DNA of 37,023 nucleotides from a virus. Its lineage: Duplodnaviria; Caudoviricetes. A program made the translations under genes and the position numbers. Position 1 is the first letter of the stretch, and every line of letters starts with the position of its first letter. The stretch is from positions 1-37,023 of IMG/VR virus record IMGVR_UViG_3300025654_000021; one strand, given 5' to 3'. A model generated the notes under the pieces. That model was not told the origin of the DNA, searched no databases, and saw only the letters and a list, made by a program, of their open reading frames with translations. Below are positions 13,251-34,081 of the stretch, one piece after another.

Positions 13251-13640
13251 ATGACTAAAAGAAACTTTTACATATTATTAGCCCTGAGTACAGTAACGTT
13301 GTTATCAGGGCTTCATAATTTATTCATAGGGATGGGTAGAATAAACCCGTTTTTGTTTTATGATTACTATAATAGTGTAGGAGTAAAAGGTATAAATATA
13401 TCTGCATTTGTTTATGAATTAGGTTATATGATACAGGTTTTAGTTGTTCTTTTTTTATGTATATTTATATCTAATAGCAAAAGCACTAAAAATATAATAC
13501 AACCATTTATATTGATTGCACTTATTGATATTTTGGATTATATTGCATTCTACAAACAACTATCATATATAAAATTGCCATTACTCGTTTTACTGGTGCT
13601 AATCTATAATATAAAATGGAAAAAATTAAAGGTAAAATGA
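13251..13640 (+). CDS. Membrane protein (lysis cassette)
   Basis: 3-4 hydrophobic helices. Confidence 0.6.
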   Translation: MTKRNFYILLALSTVTLLSGLHNLFIGMGRINPFLFYDYYNSVGVKGINISAFVYELGYMIQVLVVLFLCIFISNSKSTKNIIQPFILIALIDILDYIAFYKQLSYIKLPLLVLLVLIYNIKWKKLKVK

Positions 13641-18198: not shown

Positions 18199-18444
18199 TT
18201 ATTTATTTCTAATTATTTCTTTATAATTCTCTCTTGCTTTCTTTAAATCTTTGTAGTCCTTGTTTAGTTTGTTATAAATAGGGTCATCTTTAAAGTTATC
18301 TTTGTAGTCGTCTGGCTCTGCACTCCAATCTTTTATAATTTCTTTGTTAGGCTTTTGGAATCTCTCAAAAAACTCTAACTCTGTTAGTGGGTCTGTTAGT
18401 ATTACGTAGTTCATACGCTCGTATTCTCTTTTACTTGCTCCCAT
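18199..18444 (-). CDS. Hypothetical protein
   Basis: Co-oriented, overlaps upstream gene. Confidence 0.65.
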   Translation of the reverse strand: MGASKREYERMNYVILTDPLTELEFFERFQKPNKEIIKDWSAEPDDYKDNFKDDPIYNKLNKDYKDLKKARENYKEIIRNK

Positions 18445-19039
18445 CAGTAAACGCTTTTGTTAACTTTATTGCTTTTACCTGAATCTCTGTTAAATCGTAA
18501 GTGTCTAAAACTGTTTGTAATTGAGTTTTATTAAACTTCTGTAAGGCTGTGTTAAATTTATCCTCCTCTAATTTAGGTTTATTCCCTTTATGTATATTAT
18601 TACAATACTCGTTTACATCCCAAATTTGTTTACCGTTCTGAGCAGGAAAAAACTTATTATTCTTTTGAATTACTTCTTTAATTTTAATAATCTTTAAAGA
18701 GTATAAAAACCTACCAACTCCCCACATAACAGCAGCTCTTTTAAAAGCGTCGCTTGCCTCTCCTTTTTGTTTTTCTACCTGACTTTCAGTACCGCAATCA
18801 GATTTCCAAATCCAACCTGTATAACCAGAAAGGTCTGTGTGTAATATACCTATACTTGCAAATAAATTTCCTTTATGTTCTTCATACTTTACTTGCCAAT
18901 TACAAGCACCTACAACATCGTCTAATAAATCTTGAACATCTCTAGCATCAATATAAGCTACACAAGTACAACCGTATTGGTTAGTGCTTTGAACCCTCCA
19001 CTTAAAGGGCAATTCTTTTTTTAGTTCTTCTAAATTCAT
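18431..19039 (-). CDS. Sak/Rad52-family single-strand annealing recombinase
   Basis: KWRVQ...VAYIDARDVQDLLDDVVG...W..KSDCG.ES..E..KGEASDAFKRAAVMWGVGRFLY. Confidence 0.85.
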   Translation of the reverse strand: MNLEELKKELPFKWRVQSTNQYGCTCVAYIDARDVQDLLDDVVGACNWQVKYEEHKGNLFASIGILHTDLSGYTGWIWKSDCGTESQVEKQKGEASDAFKRAAVMWGVGRFLYSLKIIKIKEVIQKNNKFFPAQNGKQIWDVNEYCNNIHKGNKPKLEEDKFNTALQKFNKTQLQTVLDTYDLTEIQVKAIKLTKAFTDGSK

Positions 19040-23287: not shown

Positions 23288-23347
23288 ATGAAGAAAATTA
23301 AAGTATTAAACTTATACGCTTGCCTTGGAGGTAATTTGACGCAATAA
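23288..23347 (+). pseudogene. Truncated N-terminus of a C5-cytosine methyltransferase-like gene
   Basis: MKKIKVLNLYACLGGN (SAM-binding motif I-like) then stop after 19 aa. Confidence 0.55.
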
Positions 23348-23399: not shown

Positions 23400-23407
23400 T
23401 ATATTTG
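23400..23407 (+). promoter_or_regulatory. Promoter -7 element TATATTTG upstream of the cassette array
   Basis: Perfect TAnnTTTG, 28 nt before ATG 23435; candidate array-wide (Pc-like) promoter. Confidence 0.6.
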
Positions 23408-23551: not shown

Positions 23552-23595
23552 AACACTTAAATATTGTAGTATGATGCACTTTTAAATTTAGAAAC

Positions 23596-23832
23596 ATGAA
23601 AGCATTATTTAATAAAAAGAAAAAACTTGTAAAGCAATTAAATGAAATAGGTTATTTTCTAGATAAAGAAATTGAAGAAAGGTGGGGTTTTCATTACTCA
23701 AAAACAGATAGTGACCCAATGATAGATACCTTAGATTATGGTACATCCGACATAAGTTATAAAGACTTTATTGAGAGAATGGATGACTTTAAAGAAAAAC
23801 AAGATAAAGGAGAGTGGACACCAAATGCTTAA
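23596..23832 (+). CDS. Hypothetical protein (first, degenerate cassette)
   Basis: Ends just before GCATAAC of site 1. Confidence 0.7.
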   Translation: MKALFNKKKKLVKQLNEIGYFLDKEIEERWGFHYSKTDSDPMIDTLDYGTSDISYKDFIERMDDFKEKQDKGEWTPNA

Positions 23833-23836
23833 TTTA

Positions 23837-23970
23837 GCATAACGGATTGAATATGAATAGTGCCGAGCGTAGGGCTGTCCCCTGCGGAGATATAGCGAAG
23901 TAAAGCCTCTTGCATAGCAACGTAACAGGAATATCTTTTGAGGCATTATTTATATTTATTTCTATGTGCT
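23837..23970 (+). repeat. attC-like site 1 (right GTT core degenerate)
   Basis: gcataac; arms aatatgaatagtgcc / ggcattatttatatt; then ttctatgtgc instead of ttgttatgtgc. Confidence 0.6.
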
Positions 23971-24024
23971 TTTTTAATTGCACTCCCATGGTTAGTAGCG
24001 GATTAACAACTTAAAATTTAAAAA

Positions 24025-24162
24025 ATGACACCAAAAGAAAAAGCAAACGATTTACGTGAACTGTTAGAGTGGTTGAGTAACGAAGACTATTTTAATATAC
24101 CTAAAAATGAGATAGGCGAGATTTTAGAAGATTGGCAAACATATAACTCTAATTGTGGCTAA
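24025..24162 (+). CDS. Small hypothetical protein MTPKEKANDLRELL... (45 aa)
   Basis: Stop codon lies in GGCTAAC of site 2; not in track. Confidence 0.65.
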   Translation: MTPKEKANDLRELLEWLSNEDYFNIPKNEIGEILEDWQTYNSNCG

Positions 24163-24286
24163 CGGACTTGGGTATGGTTAGTGCGACCATACAGGTATTA
24201 ACTTTAAATAAAAAACAGAATGAGCAAAATGAAAAAATATTTTGATTTAGCAGAAGAACGAGCATTAACTATACCTGTTGTTATGT
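24157..24286 (+). repeat. attC-like site 2
   Basis: ggctaac; gggtatggttagtgc / gcattaactatacct; GTT at 24280. Confidence 0.85.
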
Positions 24287-24465
24287 GGCGTTTTTGTGCT
24301 TATAAGACTGAAAAAGATTACGAAAGTGGCGAGCATTATTTTATGAAAGACTTTCTTGACCATACAGAAATGAAAGTATTTAGCGGTAAACATTCAGAAA
24401 AAGAAAATCCACTTCACAGCGATTATTGTAGTATGTATTGGAAGATTGATACAAATGCCACATAA
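24220..24465 (+). CDS. Split-module hypothetical protein (starts in site 2, ends in cassette)
   Basis: Junction peptide ALTIPVVMWR; stop inside CATAAC. Confidence 0.7.
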   Translation: MSKMKKYFDLAEERALTIPVVMWRFCAYKTEKDYESGEHYFMKDFLDHTEMKVFSGKHSEKENPLHSDYCSMYWKIDTNAT

Positions 24466-24591
24466 CGGAATTGTGTATGGTATGTTGCGTATAGAGAAGC
24501 ACAGAATTAACGAATTAAAAACTAAATAAATTAATAATAACAAGCCTTTGAAATAGCAGAAAGTAGCAATAGACTATACACGTTGTTATGT
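24460..24591 (+). repeat. attC-like site 3
   Basis: acataac; gtgtatggtatgttgc / gcaatagactatacac; GTT at 24585. Confidence 0.85.
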
Positions 24592-24621
24592 ACTGTGTGA
24601 ACGGTTAAAAAGCAATAAACT

Positions 24622-25209
24622 ATGAATGAAGATAGAACCCAACAAATGTACTATAGCGTAATGAGGCAAAATAAACAAATTGATAGCCAAAAAATACTAT
24701 ATAATAAAACAGGTAATGACGAAGCCTATACGCCTGAATATGGTGTAAAGCCTATTTTAAAGTACATACCAAGTAATTTTGTTGTTTGGTGTCCTTTTGA
24801 CGAAGCTGATTCTGCATTTGTAAAAATGATAAGTAAAACGAATAAAGTAATACACTCTCATATAAGCAATGGGCAAAACTTTTTTGATTATGAGCCTAAA
24901 GAAGATTGGGATTGCATAATAAGTAACCCACCATTTAAAGGAAAGCGACAATTCTTTGAAAGGGCGTTAAGTTTTAACAAGCCATTTGCTTTAATAATGA
25001 CTAACGCTTGGTTAAATGATGCTTACTCAAAAAAAGTTTTTATGGAAGCAAATAAACAAATGCAATTACTGATGTTTGACAAAAGAATAAAGTTTAATAA
25101 TCCTTACGGAAAACCAAACAACAAAATTACGTTTAGTAGTTCTTATTTTTGTGTGGACTTCTTGCCGAATGATTTGATATGCGAGAACCTAAGTGAACAT
25201 TGTACATAA
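24622..25209 (+). CDS. Amino (N6-adenine) DNA methyltransferase, cassette-borne
   Basis: DEAYTP, VVWCPFD, IISNPPF catalytic motif, PFALIM. Confidence 0.8.
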   Translation: MNEDRTQQMYYSVMRQNKQIDSQKILYNKTGNDEAYTPEYGVKPILKYIPSNFVVWCPFDEADSAFVKMISKTNKVIHSHISNGQNFFDYEPKEDWDCIISNPPFKGKRQFFERALSFNKPFALIMTNAWLNDAYSKKVFMEANKQMQLLMFDKRIKFNNPYGKPNNKITFSSSYFCVDFLPNDLICENLSEHCT

Positions 25210-25257
25210 CGTACTTTTATAACAGGTCGTTTTAATGCCTGTTATACGGTGTTGTAC
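25204..25257 (+). repeat. attC-like site 4 (minimal)
   Basis: tataacagg-tcgttttaatg-cctgttata; GTT at 25251. Confidence 0.85.
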
Positions 25258-25294
25258 ATCTGTATTGCGGTTTTAAAGAACAAAATTTTGAATT

Positions 25295-26446
25295 ATGAAC
25301 GAACATAGTAATAACATTTTTGAGCGTGGGCAAATTGCTGACGTAGGAAGCAAAGGAATAAACGTGCTTTCTCTATTTAACGGAATGAGTACAGGACATA
25401 CTGCACTTGATAATGTAGGAATAAAAGTAAACAAATATTATAGTAGCGAATTAAAGCCTTATGCAATAGAATTGACACAACACCACTATCCGGAAACCAT
25501 ACAATTAGGCGATGTAAATAATTGGCGTGAATGGGATATTGATTGGAAAAGTATTGATTTGCTTTTAAGTGGAAGCCCTTGTAAGGATTTAAGTATTGCA
25601 GGAAAACGAAAAGGAATAAACGGAAGTAATAGCGGTTTGTTTTGGCGATTTATTGAAATATACGAACATATAAAATCTTTAAATCCAAAAATTATATTCT
25701 TTCAAGAAAACGTTGGATCTGCACCAAAAGAAGATATTGGAATTATGAGTAGATCAATGGGTGTTTATCCTGTTAGATTTAACAGTAGTTTGGTTACTGC
25801 ACAATTAAGAGATAGATATTATTGGACTAATGCAAAAACAAAACCTTTTGGAATGTTTGGTGATTTAGTTACAGATATTACAGAACCTAAAAACAGAAAT
25901 ATTAAATTGATTGATGTTATTACTGATGGTTGGACTGACAAAGAAAAAGCAAACTGCATTTTAGAAAGTGAAAGCAGAATGACAACGAGCCAAGAAAGTT
26001 TAAAAAAACGATATGTAAAAGACTTTAATACTATTGTTTATTTAGTTGAAAATGAAGTTAGGGTAAAGACAAATACTGTAAAAGGTTATGATGTTTTAAC
26101 TGAAGAAGATTGTTTAAACTTATCATTTCCAAGTAGTACAACAAGACGAGGACGAGTAACTAAAGGAAAAGCACCTTGTTTATTGCAAGGAAACGAACCT
26201 TTATATGTTTTAAAGGATAAACAAGTAAGGATGTTAAATAAGATTGAATTGTGTAGATTACAAGGCTTTCCGGACAATCATTGCGATATATTGAGCAGAA
26301 ACAAAGCGGCTTCACTTTTGGGTGATGGTTGGACTTTACCAATTATAGAACACATCTTCCAATATTTACCTTTTAAAAAAGCGAGGGAAGAAAAAAATGT
26401 TATTACGGAATATAAGCACGAATCTTTGAATAAAACAGGAACGTAG
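25295..26446 (+). CDS. C5-cytosine DNA methyltransferase, cassette-borne
   Basis: VLSLFNG (I), GSPCKD (IV), QENV (VI), QLRDR (VIII), ELCRLQGFP (IX), LGDGW (X). Confidence 0.92.
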   Translation: MNEHSNNIFERGQIADVGSKGINVLSLFNGMSTGHTALDNVGIKVNKYYSSELKPYAIELTQHHYPETIQLGDVNNWREWDIDWKSIDLLLSGSPCKDLSIAGKRKGINGSNSGLFWRFIEIYEHIKSLNPKIIFFQENVGSAPKEDIGIMSRSMGVYPVRFNSSLVTAQLRDRYYWTNAKTKPFGMFGDLVTDITEPKNRNIKLIDVITDGWTDKEKANCILESESRMTTSQESLKKRYVKDFNTIVYLVENEVRVKTNTVKGYDVLTEEDCLNLSFPSSTTRRGRVTKGKAPCLLQGNEPLYVLKDKQVRMLNKIELCRLQGFPDNHCDILSRNKAASLLGDGWTLPIIEHIFQYLPFKKAREEKNVITEYKHESLNKTGT

Positions 26447-26455
26447 CAATATTGT

Positions 26456-26586
26456 GTACAACGCATTGTATAAGGTTTCGTTGCGACCTTGAAACAGCAA
26501 CTAACTTAATTAAAATATAATAAATTATGAGTACAGAAAATAGTAACCAAAAAGATACAAGCAATAAACTTTATACATTGTTAGCA
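26456..26586 (+). repeat. attC-like site 5
   Basis: gtacaac; tgtataaggtttcgttgc / gcaataaactttataca; GTT at 26580. Confidence 0.85.
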
Positions 26587-26799
26587 AATGAGAATTTTAC
26601 AGGTTTTTATGATGACAATAAGCAACCAATTTTAGTTGGTGATAAACTAAAAAGCGAATGGGGTTATGAAGTGATTGTTGTTAAAGGTAAAAATGGTGAT
26701 TATAATGGTAAATTGGTTTGCGATGAAAACCATAGTTGCAAGAATATACCATACGCAATTAACGAAGGCAAGGGACATAGTAAAATTATTTGTTGCTAA
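26527..26799 (+). CDS. Split-module protein, C-part resembles YopX-family C-terminus
   Basis: Junction NKLYTLLAN; FTGFYDDNKQPILVGDKL resembles the YopX TG..D.NG..IYEGD motif. Confidence 0.65.
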   Translation: MSTENSNQKDTSNKLYTLLANENFTGFYDDNKQPILVGDKLKSEWGYEVIVVKGKNGDYNGKLVCDENHSCKNIPYAINEGKGHSKIICC

Positions 26800-26994
26800 C
26801 TAGAATGTGTAAGATTAGTACGATTAATTAATGACTAAATTTAATAAATATGGAAATAGAAAATTGTGTGGTATGTAAAAAATACCTAAATGAAATTGGT
26901 GAACAAGAGCGAGCAATGTGTAATGAATGTGACATAGAAACAGAAGCCATTGCAAAAGAGCAAGAACAAGTATTAATTTTACATGGTGTTACCT
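26794..26994 (+). repeat. attC-like site 6
   Basis: tgctaac; gtgtaagattagtac / gtattaattttacat; GTT at 26988. Confidence 0.85.
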
Positions 26995-27173
26995 GTAGTT
27001 TTGATTTAGCGAAAGCAAACCTAGCTATTCAGTTAATTAAAAAATCTGTATGTGAAAGTGATGTCTTAGACGCTATTTATGTAAAAGAAAAACTCAATTG
27101 GTTTGCGGTGACTGATGATATAAAAGACCTTTGGAATGAATACTATGGTGATGCAAAAAAGTACTTACCTTAA
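26850..27173 (+). CDS. Split-module protein with N-terminal CxxC..CxxC
   Basis: Junction VLILHGVTCS. Confidence 0.7.
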   Translation: MEIENCVVCKKYLNEIGEQERAMCNECDIETEAIAKEQEQVLILHGVTCSFDLAKANLAIQLIKKSVCESDVLDAIYVKEKLNWFAVTDDIKDLWNEYYGDAKKYLP

Positions 27174-27178
27174 ATTAC

Positions 27179-27230
27179 AGGTAACGCATTGTATAAGGTG
27201 CGTTTTAATGCACTTTATACGTTGTTACCT
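27179..27230 (+). repeat. attC-like site 7 (minimal)
   Basis: gtataaggtgc-gttttaat-gcactttatac; GTT at 27224. Confidence 0.88.
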
Positions 27231-27251
27231 ACTGTACTAAAAAAATGAATT

Positions 27252-27902
27252 ATGACTGAACCAAATATAGAATTACTGAACACCGATTGTTTGCTTTTTA
27301 TGAAGCAATGCGAGGATAATCAATTTGATTGGGCAATAGTTGACCCACCTTATGGTATTAACTACGATAAGGAACAGAATAAACAAGCAGAAAATGAAAG
27401 GATTAGCAATGGTGGTAAATGGAAGAAATACCACGATACAAATTGGGATAGTTCTGTTCCTGATATTGAATACTGGAATGAACTTTTTAGAATAAGTAAA
27501 AATCAAATTGTTTGGGGTGGCAATTATTTTTTTGATGTAAAACTAAATGGTGTTATTATATGGAATAAAGGCGAAAATGGAACAATGAAACAAGGCGAAC
27601 TTGCAAAATGCAGTAAAAATACTTTTAAGATATATAATAAAAGTAGAATAGATGCTTATGTAAATAGTGGTGAGCCGAAAATACACCCTTGTCAAAAACC
27701 AATTTCTTTATATGAATGGCTTTTAGATAACTATGTTAATGAAAATGAAAAAATAATTGACACTCATTTGGGAAGTGGAAGCATTGCGGTTGCTTGTTAT
27801 AACCGAAAAATTGATTTAGTAGGAATTGAAATTGATAAAACCTACTTTGACAAAGCAAACAAAAAACTAAAAGATAGAAAAAATGCACCTACTCTTTTTT
27901 AG
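27252..27902 (+). CDS. N6A/N4C DNA methyltransferase (beta class), cassette-borne
   Basis: IVDPPYG catalytic motif, HPCQKP, DTHLGSGS SAM motif. Confidence 0.92.
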   Translation: MTEPNIELLNTDCLLFMKQCEDNQFDWAIVDPPYGINYDKEQNKQAENERISNGGKWKKYHDTNWDSSVPDIEYWNELFRISKNQIVWGGNYFFDVKLNGVIIWNKGENGTMKQGELAKCSKNTFKIYNKSRIDAYVNSGEPKIHPCQKPISLYEWLLDNYVNENEKIIDTHLGSGSIAVACYNRKIDLVGIEIDKTYFDKANKKLKDRKNAPTLF

Positions 27903-27908
27903 TATTGT

Positions 27909-28027
27909 AGGTAACGGTTTGTATATGACACTTAGCAACACAGACCTTTGAGATAGAAAATAAATTAATAATTAAGCACATAGTTAAAAAATAGCCTAAC
28001 AGCTATGTGTTATATACTTTGTTAGGC
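27909..28027 (+). repeat. attC-like site 8
   Basis: aggtaac; gtatatgacacttagc / gctatgtgttatatac; GTT at 28021. Confidence 0.85.
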
Positions 28028-28037
28028 ACAGTTAATT

Positions 28038-28286
28038 ATGGGATTAAAGCAGAAATTAATAAAACACAAGACAGAGTTTTATCGCATTTTCAATGAAGCG
28101 ATTAAAAAAGATGGAGATTTTATAACAGCAGGAGGTAAATTGAGCCATGATGATTTAATTGACAGCCATTTAAGAGCTTGGGTAGCAAGTAGGATTAATG
28201 GTGGTAGTTCATCAATGGTATTTTATGCTGAAGAAGCTGAAGCCATAAAACTCATAGATAAATTGGCAAAAGAGTATTTTTCTTAA
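28038..28286 (+). CDS. Hypothetical protein, whole gene in a cassette
   Basis: Bounded by gttaggcacagttaa / ttaattgtgcctaac. Confidence 0.75.
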   Translation: MGLKQKLIKHKTEFYRIFNEAIKKDGDFITAGGKLSHDDLIDSHLRAWVASRINGGSSSMVFYAEEAEAIKLIDKLAKEYFS

Positions 28287-28290
28287 TTGT

Positions 28291-28521
28291 GCCTAACGGT
28301 TTGGCTATGAATAGTAACGGATTAATAATTACAAAACTTAATAAATATGTACAGTATTAGAACAAATTACGGAACAACACACCAATACATTGAAAGTTGG
28401 AAAGAATGGGATATAGACGAGAACTTTATAGAATTTAAACAAAAAGGTGATTTGTTGATTATACACAAAAGCCAAATTTTAACAATCTATAAGTAGTTAT
28501 TATTTATAGCCTTTGTTGTAA
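28291..28521 (+). repeat. attC-like site 9 (contains a complete ORF)
   Basis: gcctaac; ggctatgaatagtaac / gttattatttatagcc; GTT at 28515. Confidence 0.85.
28347..28496 (+). CDS. Small hypothetical protein (49 aa) wholly inside site 9 loop
   Basis: MYSIRTNYG...ILTIYK*; not in track. Confidence 0.65.
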   Translation: MYSIRTNYGTTHQYIESWKEWDIDENFIEFKQKGDLLIIHKSQILTIYK

Positions 28522-28538
28522 CACGTTTTTAAATGTGA

Positions 28539-28605
28539 TTACAACGGTTTGGCTATGAAGCGTTGTGTAGTGCAACGGAACAATGATTTATAGGTGTTGT
28601 TATGC
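28539..28605 (+). repeat. attC-like site 10 (short), preceded by 31-bp empty cassette 28515-28545
   Basis: ttacaac; ctatgaagcgttgt / acaatgatttatag; GTT at 28599. Confidence 0.8.
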
Positions 28606-28639
28606 ACCGTATTTTTTATAAAACTTAAATTAAAAACAG

Positions 28640-28969
28640 ATGGATTGGATAGAAGTAAAAGAAGAAAGCCACCAAATAAAAAACTGTATTTTGGTAGAAT
28701 GTATTGCAGAAATTAGAAAAAATGATACTGGTGAAATAAGAGAATATGAAACTCACGAAATTTTAGAAATAGGTGACGAACATCCATCTGTTTTTAATTG
28801 GGAAGAGAACAACTACTCTTGTGACTGCAATAGGCTTTTGTTTTTTAACAGAGCAAAAGGCGAAGAGAAAGACGAAGATTGGGATGTAGAATGTACTGAG
28901 GGCAAATTCTCTGTTAATCTAAAAAACAAAAAGGATGGGAAGGCGTACTATCGTGAATATGGTGCATAA
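28640..28969 (+). CDS. Hypothetical protein with NYSCDCNR motif, whole gene in a cassette
   Basis: Bounded by gttatgcaccgtatt / aatatggtgcataac. Confidence 0.75.
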   Translation: MDWIEVKEESHQIKNCILVECIAEIRKNDTGEIREYETHEILEIGDEHPSVFNWEENNYSCDCNRLLFFNRAKGEEKDEDWDVECTEGKFSVNLKNKKDGKAYYREYGA

Positions 28970-29164
28970 CTTAAATGGTTAAGGTTAGTTGCGTGAATAA
29001 GTAATGAAGTAAATAGATAATCGATATGAACGAAGATATTAAAAAAGAAATTAGAGAAATAATACATACCTATTGTGGTGGAAATTATGAAAATAGAAGA
29101 ATGGCAACAGAACTAATTTTACAAAAATGCCAAGAAAAGCAATTAACTTTAACCGATGTTAGCC
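28964..29164 (+). repeat. attC-like site 11
   Basis: gcataac; ggttaaggttagttgc / gcaattaactttaacc; GTT at 29158. Confidence 0.88.
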
Positions 29165-29277
29165 AACTACGTGAACTGTTAATAGCTTTTGATGCTATGC
29201 GAGAATTTGACATTAAGCACGATGATATAGAAGAAAGTGTTGACTACTTCTTAAAACACAAAGAAAGCTATTTATAG
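29026..29277 (+). CDS. Split-module hypothetical protein
   Basis: Junction QLTLTDVSQLRELL. Confidence 0.7.
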   Translation: MNEDIKKEIREIIHTYCGGNYENRRMATELILQKCQEKQLTLTDVSQLRELLIAFDAMREFDIKHDDIEESVDYFLKHKESYL

Positions 29278-29278
29278 T

Positions 29279-29474
29279 GGCTAACTGAATTGTGTAAGAT
29301 TAGTATTAACGGAATAGAAACAATAAATATAAAAATTATGGATAAATGTAAATGGAACTTTAAAGTATTAAACCACTATGTAAGATTGACTGTTGAAAAT
29401 AGATTTATAATACTTGGTTATAGAGGCGAAAATTGGAAAGAGTTAGTTAATATTAATTTTACACTTTGTTAGCA
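29279..29474 (+). repeat. attC-like site 12
   Basis: ggctaac; gtgtaagattagtattaac / gttaatattaattttacac; GTT at 29468. Confidence 0.88.
29338..29472 (+). CDS. N-module ORF terminating at the junction with an empty cassette
   Basis: ATG 29338 (MDKCKW...NINFTLC*); stop is TAG of GTTAGC. Confidence 0.6.
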   Translation: MDKCKWNFKVLNHYVRLTVENRFIILGYRGENWKELVNINFTLC

Positions 29475-29498
29475 AAACGAAGTGTACGTTTTAATGAT

Positions 29499-29553
29499 TG
29501 CTAACGTTAAGTATATGAGCCTGTACTTGTATGGCTTATATACATTGTTATAC
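29499..29553 (+). repeat. attC-like site 13 (minimal), preceded by 38-bp empty cassette 29468-29505
   Basis: tgctaac; gtatatgagcc / ggcttatatac; GTT at 29547. Confidence 0.85.
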
Positions 29554-29627
29554 CCTGTTTTTTAAGCGTTGGGAAAAATAATTTACAGAAAAGAGTATTT
29601 TTATTTGGTAGTAATTACAGAATACTG

Positions 29628-29635
29628 TATATTTG
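29628..29635 (+). promoter_or_regulatory. Cassette-internal promoter (TATATTTG with TTTG at 29604-29607)
   Basis: Matches Bacteroidota -33/-7 consensus. Confidence 0.7.
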
Positions 29636-29666
29636 TAGTGTAATAATAATTAAAACAAAATAAACT

Positions 29667-29933
29667 ATGAAACTTTGTAAGAAAACAAATAAGATAAAAG
29701 GCTTTTGGGTAGAGGATTACACAGAACAAGAAAAAGAGTTTTTTATTGGATTAGGGTTTACTGAAAGACGTGTTAAATTTATGGATGAGTGGATGAGTGG
29801 TTCACTTTCTTTTTACGGTAGTAGAAGTTTTGGTTTTTGGAATGATGAAGAAACTAAAACGATTTATGATGCAGTAAAAAAAGAATTTGGTAAATGTAAA
29901 CCAAGATTATTAACCACAGCAGAATTAATGTAA
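29667..29933 (+). CDS. Hypothetical protein (gene 1 of two-gene cassette)
   Basis: Follows internal promoter. Confidence 0.75.
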   Translation: MKLCKKTNKIKGFWVEDYTEQEKEFFIGLGFTERRVKFMDEWMSGSLSFYGSRSFGFWNDEETKTIYDAVKKEFGKCKPRLLTTAELM

Positions 29934-30091
29934 TGAGCAAAGACCTAATAAAATGGAGTGAGCTTAGTCGTAAACTAAGTGGTTCAGATAATTCTATCAG
30001 ACCAAACAAAGTACCTAAGAAGTACGAACAGAAAGTAAATCGTTTGCTATGGATTCTCGATTTGTGGGAGCGTTGGGCAAATAGGGTATAA
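29933..30091 (+). CDS. Small possible DNA-binding protein (52 aa; gene 2 of cassette)
   Basis: TAATG coupling; MSKDLIKWSELSRKLSGSDNSIRPNKVPKK...; stop within GTATAAC; not in track. Confidence 0.7.
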   Translation: MSKDLIKWSELSRKLSGSDNSIRPNKVPKKYEQKVNRLLWILDLWERWANRV

Positions 30092-30278
30092 CGTATGTGG
30101 TTAAGGTTAGTTGCGTTATTGATAACACAAAAATAAATAGATATGACAATAGATAACTTAATTAATTGGTTGGAAGAAGCCGAAGATAATAACACTTGGT
30201 TAGTAAGTACACAAAGTGTAAAACGACACCTTGAAAAAATAAAAGAAACTGAGCAATTAAATTTAACCGATGTTAGCC
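30086..30278 (+). repeat. attC-like site 14
   Basis: gtataac; ggttaaggttagttgc / gcaattaaatttaacc; GTT at 30272. Confidence 0.88.
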
Positions 30279-30394
30279 AACAACGTGAACTGTTTTATAA
30301 TTTTATTACTTGGTATAACGCAAAACCTAAATTAGAAAAAAATAAAGATGGGTTAGTTACTATTGGTGTAATAGATGAGTTTTTAAAATTATAA
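30143..30394 (+). CDS. Split-module hypothetical protein
   Basis: Junction QLNLTDVSQQRELF. Confidence 0.7.
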   Translation: MTIDNLINWLEEAEDNNTWLVSTQSVKRHLEKIKETEQLNLTDVSQQRELFYNFITWYNAKPKLEKNKDGLVTIGVIDEFLKL

Positions 30395-30400
30395 TATAGT

Positions 30401-30604
30401 GGCTAACGTGCTTGTGGTATGGATAGTTGCGTAAAAATAAAACAAAACTTATATAAATGGAAAAAACAGAATTGATTAAAGGTATTTTGAAATTAGGCGA
30501 AGAACTTGATAAAGACCACGGAATGGGAAGCGTTATGATAATTGATGATATGCAAAGACTTGTAGATAAGTACGTAGAGCAATTATCTATACCACGTGTT
30601 GTAA
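30401..30604 (+). repeat. attC-like site 15
   Basis: ggctaac; gtggtatggatagttgc / gcaattatctataccac; GTT at 30598. Confidence 0.88.
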
Positions 30605-30750
30605 AATCGTTGCCGACTGATGAAGAAATATATTCTGAGGGATGCAACTATGTTAGAAAAATAGAACAACCTAATAGACAACCTTTAATTACATTAAGAC
30701 GAACTTTTAAGGCTGGTGCAGAGTTTGTAAAAAAGCAATTAGACAACTGA
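30457..30750 (+). CDS. Split-module hypothetical protein
   Basis: Junction QLSIPRVVKS; C-part LPTDEEI...FKAGAEF. Confidence 0.7.
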   Translation: MEKTELIKGILKLGEELDKDHGMGSVMIIDDMQRLVDKYVEQLSIPRVVKSLPTDEEIYSEGCNYVRKIEQPNRQPLITLRRTFKAGAEFVKKQLDN

Positions 30751-30763
30751 TTTAGGTTATGTT

Positions 30764-30956
30764 TTACAACGGTTTGTATAACCTTACTAGCGAAAATTAA
30801 TAACTTAAAATAATAAATAATGACTGATAAAGAATTTAATAAACTTGACAAACACTATAATAAATTAGTGAAGAAAGGAACCATAAAAACAATGAATGAT
30901 GCCTACATTTATAAATTAGCAATAGAAAAAGCTATTAAGGTTATACGTTGTTGTGA
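30764..30956 (+). repeat. attC-like site 16
   Basis: ttacaac; gtataaccttactagc / gctattaaggttatac; GTT at 30950. Confidence 0.88.
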
Positions 30957-31110
30957 AACGTTTGAGGTTAAAGAAGTACCTACTTTTGAGGAATGGAAGA
31001 AACAAAATTACATACACTATGATAAAGGACAGTTTGCAAGAAAAGCAGAAGGTTTAAAGGATTTAGAACAACTTAAACAAATATACAATAAGGAAATACT
31101 AAACCTCTAA
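30820..31110 (+). CDS. Split-module hypothetical protein
   Basis: Junction AIKVIRCCET. Confidence 0.7.
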   Translation: MTDKEFNKLDKHYNKLVKKGTIKTMNDAYIYKLAIEKAIKVIRCCETFEVKEVPTFEEWKKQNYIHYDKGQFARKAEGLKDLEQLKQIYNKEILNL

Positions 31111-31114
31111 TGTT

Positions 31115-31307
31115 TTACAACTTAAAAGTGTATGATTAGTAGCGTGGGATAATAACTAAATAAAATAAGAATGAATAAACTAAAGGAAATAATTGAACGA
31201 GTAAAAGAGTATGAGGATAATAACTGTTTTGAATTAAAAACAAGTGTTGTTTTGCATTGGCTAAATGAAATACAAAAAGAAGCTATTAATTATACACATT
31301 GTTGTAA
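31115..31307 (+). repeat. attC-like site 17
   Basis: ttacaac; gtgtatgattagtagc / gctattaattatacac; GTT at 31301. Confidence 0.88.
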
Positions 31308-31422
31308 AAGCGATAGCGAACTGTTACCTAGTTTTCTTTATAAAAAGGGAGGCTTATATTTTAAGTACAGAGAAGATACAGATGTTACAGAACATTGGAA
31401 TGAATACCTAAAAACTAGGTAA
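31171..31422 (+). CDS. Split-module hypothetical protein
   Basis: Junction AINYTHCCKS. Confidence 0.7.
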   Translation: MNKLKEIIERVKEYEDNNCFELKTSVVLHWLNEIQKEAINYTHCCKSDSELLPSFLYKKGGLYFKYREDTDVTEHWNEYLKTR

Positions 31423-31426
31423 TTGT

Positions 31427-31496
31427 TTACAACACAAAGATAAAAACACGTTTTAATGTGTTTTATCGACTGTTGACCAACGTTTTAATGTTGGTA
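31427..31496 (+). repeat. Terminal minimal site 18 plus terminal empty half-cassette
   Basis: gataaaaacac-gttttaat-gtgttttatc; GTT at 31472; accaac-gttttaat-gttggt lacking closing AAC. Confidence 0.8.
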
Positions 31497-31520
31497 TTTA
31501 ATTAATAAAACTAAAAACAA

Positions 31521-32378
31521 ATGAGCGAAGAGCAAAAAGAAGAACAACACGAGCATATTATGTCTATGCAAATGATACAAGAAGAGTGCGCTATTAACAT
31601 TAATGAAAAAATAGAACATCCTCCAGTAGCAATTAGCTATAAGACTAAAGAAGTAGTAACTAAAGACGGAGAGATTAAAGAGTTTCCTATACCAATAGGC
31701 ACTTACGGTAACTTTAGCTTTATACAAGCACCTCCTAAGTCTATGAAGACATTTTTTGTTAGTTTGTTAGGCTCTGCTTATTGTAACCCAAATGGAACTC
31801 ATACATCAGGACTAAGCTCCTTTAGAGAAGACAGAGAGTATATCCATTTCGATACAGAGCAGGGAGACTGGCATTCACAGCGTGTATTTAAACGTATTCA
31901 ATGGATGAATAAAGAGTCTAACTTAGACTTCTACCATACATTTGCGTTAAGAAAGATAGGTTTTAGAGATAGAATAAACTTTATAGAATACTATTTGCAG
32001 ACATTAACAGATACTGGTAAGAAGATAGGTGTAGTAGTTATTGATGGTGTAGCAGATTTAGTATCCGATGCAAACAATCTTGAGGAATCAAACCTCGTAG
32101 TACAGAAGATTATGGCTTGGACAACTATTTATGATTGCCATATCATTACAGTAATACACTCTAACTTTGGCTCAGACAAGCCTACAGGGCACTTAGGGAG
32201 CTTCTTAGAGAAGAAAGCAGAGACTCAGATACAATTAGAAAGAGACCCTAATAAACTAGGTGCTATAACAGTATCTTGCAAGAGAAGTAGAAACACACCA
32301 TTTGAGCAGTTTGACTTTAGATTAGACGATAACGGTTTGCCTAAGATAGATAACCCAGATGATGTTTATAGTTTCTAA
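31521..32378 (+). CDS. RecA-fold ATPase (AAA_25/RepA-helicase-like)
   Basis: Walker A variant APPKSMKT, FDTEQG, Walker B VVIDGVAD, VIHSN...GHLGS. Confidence 0.8.
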   Translation: MSEEQKEEQHEHIMSMQMIQEECAININEKIEHPPVAISYKTKEVVTKDGEIKEFPIPIGTYGNFSFIQAPPKSMKTFFVSLLGSAYCNPNGTHTSGLSSFREDREYIHFDTEQGDWHSQRVFKRIQWMNKESNLDFYHTFALRKIGFRDRINFIEYYLQTLTDTGKKIGVVVIDGVADLVSDANNLEESNLVVQKIMAWTTIYDCHIITVIHSNFGSDKPTGHLGSFLEKKAETQIQLERDPNKLGAITVSCKRSRNTPFEQFDFRLDDNGLPKIDNPDDVYSF

Positions 32379-33535: not shown

Positions 33536-34081
33536 ATGTTAGAGTTATTAGCTACAAAACACGATGATTGGGTTAGAATAACCTTTAGTATGACTGGAAA
33601 TATGAATGATGCACAAGACTTGGTGCAGGATATGTATTTAAGGTTAGACAGATTAGGTAAGACAAGAGAGCAGGTATCTTACAAGGATACGGTAAACAGA
33701 TACTTTATATGGACGGTATTATTTAATATGTTCAAGGTCTCTAGGAGAACTAAAGTCTACAAGAAGTTAGATACTTGTGAGTATCTGGGTAATGAAGAAG
33801 TTACTTTAGAAGAGTATGATTTTGATGAGACGCACTTTAGCTCTGTAGAGACCATAAGCAATAGTATAAAGAATATTGTAAAGGATTGGAAAGTTTATGA
33901 TAGGCAGCTGTTTGACTTATATTATATGCAAGGTCAATCACTAAGACAAATAGCAAACGGAGCAGGTATTGGATTGAACTCTATACATAATTCAGTTAAG
34001 AGTTATAGAAAAATACTTAAAGACGAGCTATCAGAGGATTTAATGGATTACTTTAACGGAGATTATGACAAGATACTATAG
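33536..34081 (+). CDS. Phage-encoded ECF/sigma-70-like transcription factor
   Basis: DAQDLVQDMYLRL (region 2) and SLRQIANGAGIGLNSIHN (region 4 HTH). Confidence 0.8.
   Translation: MLELLATKHDDWVRITFSMTGNMNDAQDLVQDMYLRLDRLGKTREQVSYKDTVNRYFIWTVLFNMFKVSRRTKVYKKLDTCEYLGNEEVTLEEYDFDETHFSSVETISNSIKNIVKDWKVYDRQLFDLYYMQGQSLRQIANGAGIGLNSIHNSVKSYRKILKDELSEDLMDYFNGDYDKIL

What the first reader, a model, noticed from the sequence alone, without database searches (positions are those of the whole stretch)
23837..31496. Phage-borne integron-like cassette array with a two-tier hairpin grammar
SEEN: 18 consecutive sites of the form YAAC-(5-7 nt)-arm-[loop]-arm'-(2-4 nt)-GTTR alternate with cassettes. Each cassette's start is the reverse complement of its own end. 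Examples: gttatgtggcgttt 24280 / aaatgccacataac 24466; gttacctgtagttt 26988 / aaattacaggtaac 27185; gttacctactgtactaaaaaa 27224 / ttttttagtattgtaggtaac 27915; gttaggcacagttaa 28021 / ttaattgtgcctaac 28297; gttatgcaccgtatt 28599 / aatatggtgcataac 28970; gttataccctgttt 29547 / aaatagggtataac 30092. Arm sequences differ between sites while pairing is retained (covariation). The AAC core usually matches its own cassette's GTT core better than the next one. Six ORFs stop in the TAA of TAAC. KNOWN: these are hallmarks of integron cassettes (RYYYAAC...GTTRRRY attC, crossover at G|TT, stop codon in R''). INFERENCE: a structure-recognising site-specific recombination system that loads and reorders accessory genes in a phage. 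It differs from classical attC in site length (to ~230 bp), long cassette-end pairing and coding loops. I cannot verify whether it is already described.
Basis: partly seen in the sequence, partly recalled or inferred. Interest (0 to 1): 0.93.

Follow-up and report, generated by a model that had tools for sequence, protein, structure and literature searches.

The report
Back-to-front integron-like phage gene cassettes
This marine phage carries a row of about 18 small gene units that sister phages hold in shuffled order, always joined at one three-letter mark beside a predicted DNA hairpin, likely by a borrowed integron-like enzyme of its Bacteroidota host, and the units point the opposite way to those in host chromosomes and textbook integrons.

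Summary
The array is real: 16 intact hairpin sites plus a decayed first and a variant last one. Sister contigs hold five of the window's cassettes whole (99.5-100% identical) between other neighbours. Each hairpin heads its own gene, which explains the coding loops. This is attC polarity inverted relative to the genes, and G:T pairs mark the coding strand as the folded one. The same sites form chromosomal arrays of classical polarity in Bacteroidota (92 vs 7 genes; phage loci 1 vs 35). There they sit beside an IntI-related tyrosine recombinase lacking the IntI insertion (16 of 20 loci vs 0 of 20 XerC/D controls). The window encodes none. Rarer GTT-side swaps recombine protein halves. One site of this class was tested in print (Polaribacter phage P12002L, PMC9892861) and was not recombined by IntI1. 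Ten searches found no description of the system. This scan noted it before on other DNA. Enzyme activity is inferred, not shown.

The parts
23574..23843 (+). Leftmost cassette body with ORF 23596-23832 (78 aa); its hairpin and GTT are lost here
   Evidence: L286 has GTT directly before the shared stretch, which starts at 23574
23841..23963 (+). Decayed first site (arms pair, TCT in place of GTT); followed by an eroded unit with ORF 24025-24162 ending in TAAC
24161..24466 (+). Cassette: site 24161-24282; ORF 24220-24465 starts in the loop, reads through GTT, stops in TAAC
   Evidence: different right neighbour in L286
24464..25210 (+). Cassette: site 24464-24587; DNA methyltransferase 24622-25209
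   Evidence: phrog_799 E 4e-33; right end at AAC in L285 and L286
25208..26462 (+). Cassette: site 25208-25253; C5-cytosine methyltransferase 25295-26446
   Evidence: PF00145 E 8e-28; skipped AAC to AAC in runs X1, X2, X9 and X8 record 22
26460..26800 (+). Cassette: site 26460-26582; ORF 26527-26799 starts in the loop
   Evidence: 100% identical, other neighbours on both sides in L286
26798..27185 (+). Cassette: site 26798-26990; ORF 26850-27173 starts in the loop
   Evidence: 99.5% identical, other neighbours on both sides in L286
27183..27915 (+). Cassette: site 27183-27226; N6/N4 methyltransferase 27252-27902
   Evidence: PF01555 E 1e-13
27913..28297 (+). Cassette: site 27913-28023; ORF 28038-28286
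   Evidence: 100% identical, other neighbours on both sides in L286
28295..28545 (+). Cassette with ORF 28347-28496 wholly inside the 223-nt site and a 31-nt geneless body
28543..28970 (+). Cassette: site 28543-28601; ORF 28640-28969 stops in TAAC
   Evidence: 100% identical, other neighbours in L286, L288, L292
28968..29285 (+). Cassette: site 28968-29160; two-part ORF 29026-29277 (loop half + body half)
   Evidence: run X10 carries 11 differences in the stretch 28541-29285, ten of them listed, all behind the GTT
29283..29505 (+). Cassette with ORF 29338-29472 in the loop (stop in GTTAG) and a 38-nt body
29503..30092 (+). Cassette: site 29503-29549; two ORFs, 29667-29933 and 29933-30091
   Evidence: other left neighbour in L334
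30090..30407 (+). Cassette: site 30090-30274; two-part ORF 30143-30394
   Evidence: skipped AAC to AAC in run X2
30405..30770 (+). Cassette: site 30405-30600; ORF 30457-30750 starts in the loop
30768..31121 (+). Cassette: site 30768-30952; ORF 30820-31110 starts in the loop
   Evidence: 100% identical, other neighbours on both sides in L334
31119..31433 (+). Cassette: site 31119-31303; ORF 31171-31422 starts in the loop
31431..31496 (+). Terminal double hairpin (variant site + geneless mini-body); likely docking end of the array
   Evidence: Kept in relatives L007-L011 and L013-L016, with various cassettes to its left and similarity resuming at the AAC; absent, with the whole array, in L012, L017, L018, L021

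Best explanation
The stretch is an array of mobile gene cassettes that are lost, gained and reordered at the AAC in front of each predicted hairpin, likely by an integron-like tyrosine recombinase of Bacteroidota supplied from outside this phage and likely acting on the folded coding strand.

Shown by sequence comparison: (1) the unit of exchange runs from AAC to AAC and carries hairpin, loop, GTT box and gene; (2) its two ends pair, so a circular form would close the outer stem; (3) G:T pairs favour folding of the coding strand; (4) polarity is inverted against host chromosomal arrays of the same sites; (5) these arrays sit beside one clade of PF13495+PF00589 recombinases in hosts and in other phages; (6) the window has no such gene.

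Inferred: the enzyme recognises the folded single strand, cuts within AAC as IntI does, excises circles and reinserts them mostly at the right end (31431), so the left end ages and decays. Recombination of the other strand would give the rarer GTT-side swaps, which join loop-coded protein heads to new bodies. Selection is likely on cargo such as the three orphan methyltransferases (anti-restriction).
For: Joints. In L286, L288, L292 and L334 (96-100% identical), 17 of 19 internal segment ends lie within 3 nt of an AAC; AAC windows cover under 2% of the array. In 8 runs laid, the 6 joints listed with 4-6 shared letters all lie at AAC. In P12002L vs P12002S, the 8 ends of near-identical segments at array junctions are at AAC or run 2-11 nt into the similar spacer and arm; none is at GTT.

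Linkage. Where the left flank is shared but the right is not, the hairpin differs in 11 of 11 viral and 6 of 6 bacterial comparisons. Where the right flank is shared, the hairpin is the same in 11 of 16 and 8 of 8.

Strand. Arms have 28 G:T and 0 A:C on +. The + fold is more stable in 16 of 16 circular-form sites, mean 3.8 kcal/mol. G:T pairs also mark the recombining strand of true attC sites (PMC5027507, passages).

Polarity. Genes lie opposite to the folded strand in 92 of 99 gaps in bacterial loci and on it in 35 of 36 in viral loci, and 86 of 87 beside phage-borne recombinases.

Enzyme link. At least 2 sites within 8 kb in 16 of 20 clade genes vs 0 of 20 XerC/D-like controls. 31 of 76 viral clade loci have at least 2 sites upstream. 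A strong clade hit (E at most 5e-80) occurs in 67 of 81 genomes of the Aquimarina family sample.
Against: No recombination was observed experimentally, and the enzyme link is by neighbourhood only. This phage's host is not identified.

44 of 76 viral clade loci and 4 of 20 host loci had fewer than 2 sites nearby (many viral loci have short flanks).

2 of 19 segment ends are not at AAC (deletions at 23574 and 24467-24672), and a 93%-identical homologue (L289) breaks at GTT. 5 of 16 viral body comparisons have another hairpin.

The window is a linear record lacking the portal gene and the terminase end, so a recombinase could lie in the missing part. Five complete isolates with such sites also gave no hit.

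No window cassette was found in 2.0 Mb of bacterial loci except distant methyltransferases. The cut position inside AAC could not be fixed.
Confidence: 0.8

Rival explanations
1. Homology-driven exchange by the phage's own Rad52/Erf-like annealing protein (18431-19039), with the repeated sites as short homologies.
For: The window encodes PF04098, NinB, NinG and RusA-like genes. Some loop/body swaps share 15-28 nt of arm (3 of 10 pairs), and the 24467-24672 replacement looks like a microhomology deletion.
Against: Main joints share only 3-6 letters and sit at AAC, not in the longer, more alike arms. It does not explain own-end pairing, the one-strand G:T bias, or host arrays beside one recombinase clade.
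Confidence: 0.07
2. Classical integron CALIN served by a true IntI, crossover at G|TT behind each gene (first reader; Qi et al.).
For: AAC/GTT cores, own-end pairing and stops in TAAC. IntI1 did recombine P12002L_attC2, which overlaps that phage's terminal element.
Against: Joints are at AAC on the coding strand. A 1-nt bulge improved arm pairing in 0 of 16 sites. The neighbouring enzymes score 181-227 bits on TIGR02249 (cut-off 265) and lack about 43 residues against VchIntIA. P12002L_attC1, a regular site of this class, was the one of six not recombined by IntI1. No Rfam hit.
Confidence: 0.05
3. The hairpins work as mRNA structures (translation coupling, processing); swapping is a by-product.
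For: In the phage the folded strand is the coding strand, and 10 of 16 loops hold a start codon.
Against: In hosts the same G:T pattern lies on the non-coding strand. The best outer stem forms only in the circular form (15 of 16). A secondary RNA role remains possible.
Confidence: 0.04
4. MITE-like transposition or assembly artefact.
For: Bodies have terminal inverted repeats. MITEs are reported in Bacteroidota and their phages (PMC11602168, passages). Metagenome assemblers can misjoin.
Against: Units stack head to tail, sharing only AAC, with no target duplication. The hairpin travels with the unit. Shared letters (3-6) are far below assembly word length, the same joints recur in separate studies, and two cultured isolates show the same rule.
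Confidence: 0.04

Closest known systems
Integrons (IntI, attI, attC cassettes; class 1, Vibrio sedentary integrons)
   Same: Single-gene cassettes; exchange in an AAC triplet; site completed by the cassette's own ends; G:T-stabilised preferred strand; stop codons in the core; related tyrosine recombinase (best solved match VchIntIA, 2A3V).
   Different: Phage polarity inverted (site heads the gene, coding strand folds); 5-6/3 nt spacer; no extrahelical bases; outer stem 8-14 bp; translated loops up to 223 nt; enzyme lacks the IntI insertion. Host arrays appear to put the folded strand on the lagging-strand template (17 of 20, 9 of 11 clear calls), unlike 25 of 30 sedentary integrons (PMC5371416).
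CALINs in virulent phages, Polaribacter phage P12002L (Qi et al. 2023, PMC9892861)
   Same: Same site class: their P12002L_attC1 has the 6/3 geometry and lies on the coding strand in front of a methyltransferase gene. No integrase; methyltransferase cargo.
   Different: They called 2 sites of divergent direction; my scan finds 9 on one strand in two arrays. In the parts I read they do not describe inverted polarity, reordering, host arrays or a non-IntI enzyme.
Integron-like subgroup of simple tyrosine recombinases (Smyshlyaev et al. 2021, PMC8138268)
   Same: [quoted passage not shown]
   Different: It calls the insertion essential for integron function; here insertion-less members flank cassette arrays.

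Membership tests
Integron (classical) | IntI gene next to the array | tested here: not met
   No tyrosine recombinase in 68 ORFs or six frames; record is incomplete
Integron (classical) | Integrase with the IntI-specific insertion | tested here: not met
   6 of 6 array-linked host enzymes below the TIGR02249 cut-off, matched in two pieces; about 43 aa missing against 2A3V in the one aligned
Integron (classical) | Exchange within the conserved AAC triplet of the folded strand | tested here: met
   17 of 19 segment ends; position within the triplet not resolved
Integron (classical) | attC behind the gene, non-coding (bottom) strand recombines | tested here: not met
   Inverted in the window and in 35 of 36 viral gaps; met in 92 of 99 bacterial gaps
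Integron (classical) | Core completed by the cassette's own ends | tested here: met
   0 of 100,000 permutations
Integron (classical) | Extrahelical bases in the attC arms | tested here: not met
   0 of 16 sites improved by a 1-nt bulge; conserved G:T at arm positions 7 and 12 instead
Integron (classical) | attI docking site and Pc promoter | tested here: inconclusive
   A conserved terminal element at 31431; it differs from the short AT-rich motif before phage-borne recombinases. A TAnnTTTG match at 23400 (motif recalled; 34 such matches on +) is no evidence of a promoter
Integron (classical) | Recombination of single-stranded folded sites by the enzyme | not testable with these tools
   Published test of one site with IntI1 was negative (PMC9892861)
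CALIN (attC cluster without integrase) | Detection by the attC covariance model or HattCI | not testable with these tools
   IntegronFinder not available; Rfam gave 0 hits at E up to 5; HattCI did call one site of this class in P12002L
MITE | Target-site duplication, dispersed copies | tested here: not met
   Joints share only the AAC core; units are tandem

The most novel reading that the evidence does not exclude
Bacteroidota run a widespread, overlooked sister system of integrons with an insertion-less recombinase. Their phages have taken it over with the cassettes turned back to front and keep a cassette pool of their own. The two ends of each site give two shuffling axes: AAC moves whole genes, GTT recombines selected protein heads (loop) with tails (body). 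That would make it a site-specific generator of new small proteins.
Probability: 0.5. Interest if true: 0.92.

Novelty: new variant of a known kind. Interest (0 to 1): 0.8.

Why it matters
Integrons are held to be rare in Bacteroidota (IntegronFinder 2.0 paper names one complete integron in the phylum, PMC9024848, passage) and rare in phages. If the enzyme link holds, most Flavobacteriaceae-type genomes sampled here (67 of 81) carry the candidate enzyme of a cassette platform that current tools largely miss. Their phages would use it to swap methyltransferases and small unknown genes at precise sites.

This window is a good test case because wild sister genomes show the same cassettes in several orders. 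It also asks how a tyrosine recombinase without the IntI insertion and without flipped-out bases picks a folded strand, and it yields a defined pool of candidate counter-defence genes.

Tried and rejected
My idea that hosts keep the folded strand on the leading-strand template (as Vibrio) and that phages flip it failed. Host loci gave lagging-strand template in 17 of 20 (only 11 clear calls, 9 lagging). Phage skews are confounded with coding strand, and P12002L/S point the other way. Why polarity is inverted stays open.

L288 is a 2170-bp circle equal to window 26798-28967 with 1 mismatch, closed at AAC. The same joint occurs in linear L286, so an assembly cycle cannot be excluded; I do not count it as an excised circle.

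RNA run X20 held a small share of the stretch and shows nothing about expression. Joints with short sides and unknown letters between were not counted.

The first greedy scans missed 5/3 sites and were replaced. Site 30405 needed a 7/3 register. In one search the first AAC was entered as 23840; it is 23841.

Rfam, Pfam, PHROGs, NCBIfam and PADLOC named only the three methyltransferases among 19 array ORFs; two more hit unnamed PHROGs. The ESM Atlas gave nothing usable for ORF 30143.

A match to the phage docking motif at 13558 lies in a gene and may be chance. Muminvirus and Lillamyvirus isolates gave only 2 sites each at my threshold and were not followed.

PMC8565304, PMC10013915 and PMC8618304 (passages) had nothing on this system.
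Full report
Context. The window is the whole record (37,023 bp): a tailed phage with HK97-type head, tail, recombination, primase/helicase and terminase genes. Its closest named relatives in the array are Tenacibaculum, Polaribacter, Flavobacterium and Cellulophaga phages. 17 runs holding at least half of the array's sampled words are all marine metagenomes. The array lies between the primase/helicase (ends 23000) and an AAA gene (starts 31521). No tyrosine recombinase was found among 68 ORFs or in six frames; the record lacks the portal gene and the terminase end.

Observation. The scan finds 17 hits on + and 0 on - in 23801-31550, against 0.65 (max 3) in 40 shuffles. Curated, there are 16 complete sites of 44-223 nt, a decayed first site and a variant last site. 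Each body pairs best with its own end (0 of 100,000 permutations; 13 of 16 best or tied), and six ORFs stop in TAAC. Arms covary at seven positions, keep G:T at positions 7 (14 of 16) and 12 (11 of 16), and have no bulges. G:T pairs lie on the + strand 28 to 0, and the + fold is more stable in 16 of 16.

Where the cut is. L286 carries the window's cassettes at 99.5-100% in another order and behind a different gene (a terminase); L288, L292 and L334 give further orders. Of 19 internal segment ends in these four, 17 are within 3 nt of an AAC. The other two are deletions, at 23574 and at 24467-24672. Five cassettes (26460, 26798, 27913, 28543, 30768) occur whole with other neighbours on both sides.

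Eight public runs laid on the array show AAC-to-AAC joints 25206-27912, 25207-26460, 27181-29282, 30088-30404, 28294-26460 and 28966-26797, several in three or more runs (contigs only, and the best holder may be the source sample). The cultured pair P12002L/P12002S follows the same rule. Across loci, the hairpin never stays with the left flank (0 of 11 viral, 0 of 6 bacterial) and mostly stays with the right flank (11 of 16, 8 of 8).

So a cassette is hairpin, then GTT box, then gene, then AAC. This explains why 9 main ORFs start in a loop and reach the GTT, one lies wholly in a loop, and none crosses an AAC (two short overlapping alternative-frame ORFs do).

Ends of the array. Close relatives keep the element at 31431-31496 with various cassettes to its left (L007-L011, L013-L016). 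Others lack it and the array altogether (L012, L017, L018, L021). The left end is eroded (lost hairpin at 23574, TCT core at 23961). I infer insertion at the right and ageing at the left.

Host side. Genes between neighbouring sites lie opposite to the folded strand in 92 of 99 bacterial gaps and on it in 35 of 36 viral gaps. Site lengths fall in the same three classes in both. Loops of 175 nt or more hold an open frame through GTT in 18 of 26 viral and 0 of 28 bacterial sites.

Six tyrosine recombinases beside bacterial sites are PF13495+PF00589 proteins below the integron-integrase cut-off; the one aligned lacks about 43 residues against VchIntIA. With a profile of these, 67 of 81 genomes of the Aquimarina family sample have a strong hit. 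16 of 20 such genes have at least 2 sites within 8 kb, against 0 of 20 XerC/D-like controls. Of 80 viral relatives, 76 had a called ORF; 31 have at least 2 sites upstream, co-directional, with genes on the folded strand 86 to 1, and 44 have fewer than 2. Many end in a shared AT-rich motif starting at AAC shortly before the start codon. That this clade does the recombining, and in trans for this phage, is inference.

Second axis. For one arm class, 189 matches gave 66 distinct complete loop/body pairs (96 incomplete dropped). All 66 have an in-frame ATG upstream of the arm' and past the AAC. 10 of 52 loop groups occur with more than one body and 4 of 56 bodies with more than one loop. The frame stops at the body's end in 83 of 90 bodies, against 4 and 1 in the other frames. 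Synonymous changes match or exceed non-synonymous ones (loop 74:63, body 33:34), so both halves look selected.

Among 748 viral and metagenome sites, 7 of 10 pairs with the same body and another hairpin share only 3-5 nt at GTT (five of the seven concern one body); 3 share 15-28 nt. This fits occasional recombination of the other strand, known for attC sites without extrahelical bases (PMC5027507, passages), but arm homology may explain some.

Literature. PMC9892861 (passages, section 3.4 whole, supplement part 1 of 2) reports CALINs in virulent phages. Its P12002L_attC1 is a site of this class on the coding strand and was the one of six not recombined by IntI1; attC2, over the terminal element, was. 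PMC7077304 (passages) links missing methyltransferases to poor plating in Flavobacterium phages. PMC8138268, PMC9024848, PMC5371416, PMC11602168 and PMC8618304 were read as passages. Ten searches found no description of the Bacteroidota system or the inverted polarity; subscription journals are mostly outside the library. Earlier notes of this scan report the same system on other DNA; I treated them as leads.

Verdict. Real, and shuffled in wild populations. It works like an integron but fails classical membership on enzyme, polarity and bulges. New variant of a known kind; interest 0.8.

Noticed in passing
L288 (G002, 2293 bp): A record with 123-bp terminal repeats equal to a 2170-bp circle of five window cassettes closed at AAC; excised circle or assembly cycle.
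   Followed up: partly
L286:3830-4540 vs window 24467-24672: A common allele (runs X1, X2, X10, X14, X16) fuses another loop-coded head in frame to the methyltransferase and removes arm' and GTT, which would lock the cassette.
   Followed up: partly
window 26988: GTT is TTT in L286 and runs X14 and X16; a core mutation that may immobilise the cassette.
   Followed up: no
window 23288-23345: Short truncated reading frame that resembles the start of a C5 methyltransferase (by eye), upstream of the array; possible remnant.
   Followed up: no
L007:2833: First cassette sits at an AAC inside the arm' of an older site, a secondary insertion point.
   Followed up: no
L683-L722 (host flanks): Host arrays appear to put the folded strand on the lagging-strand template (17 of 20), opposite to Vibrio integrons, so their genes would face replication.
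   Followed up: partly
L635-L637 (Aquimarina chromosome, about 127-190 kb): A cassette array spread over tens of kb beside the clade recombinase.
   Followed up: partly
L013:4058-4710: A second small array ending in a second copy of the terminal element, downstream of the AAA gene.
   Followed up: no
window 33536-34081: Phage-encoded ECF-type sigma factor (TIGR02937, just above cut-off).
   Followed up: no
L072: A 2.5-kb contig in a Mycoplasma-labelled MAG has sites in phage polarity and a methyltransferase 48% identical to ORF 27252; probably misbinned phage DNA.
   Followed up: no
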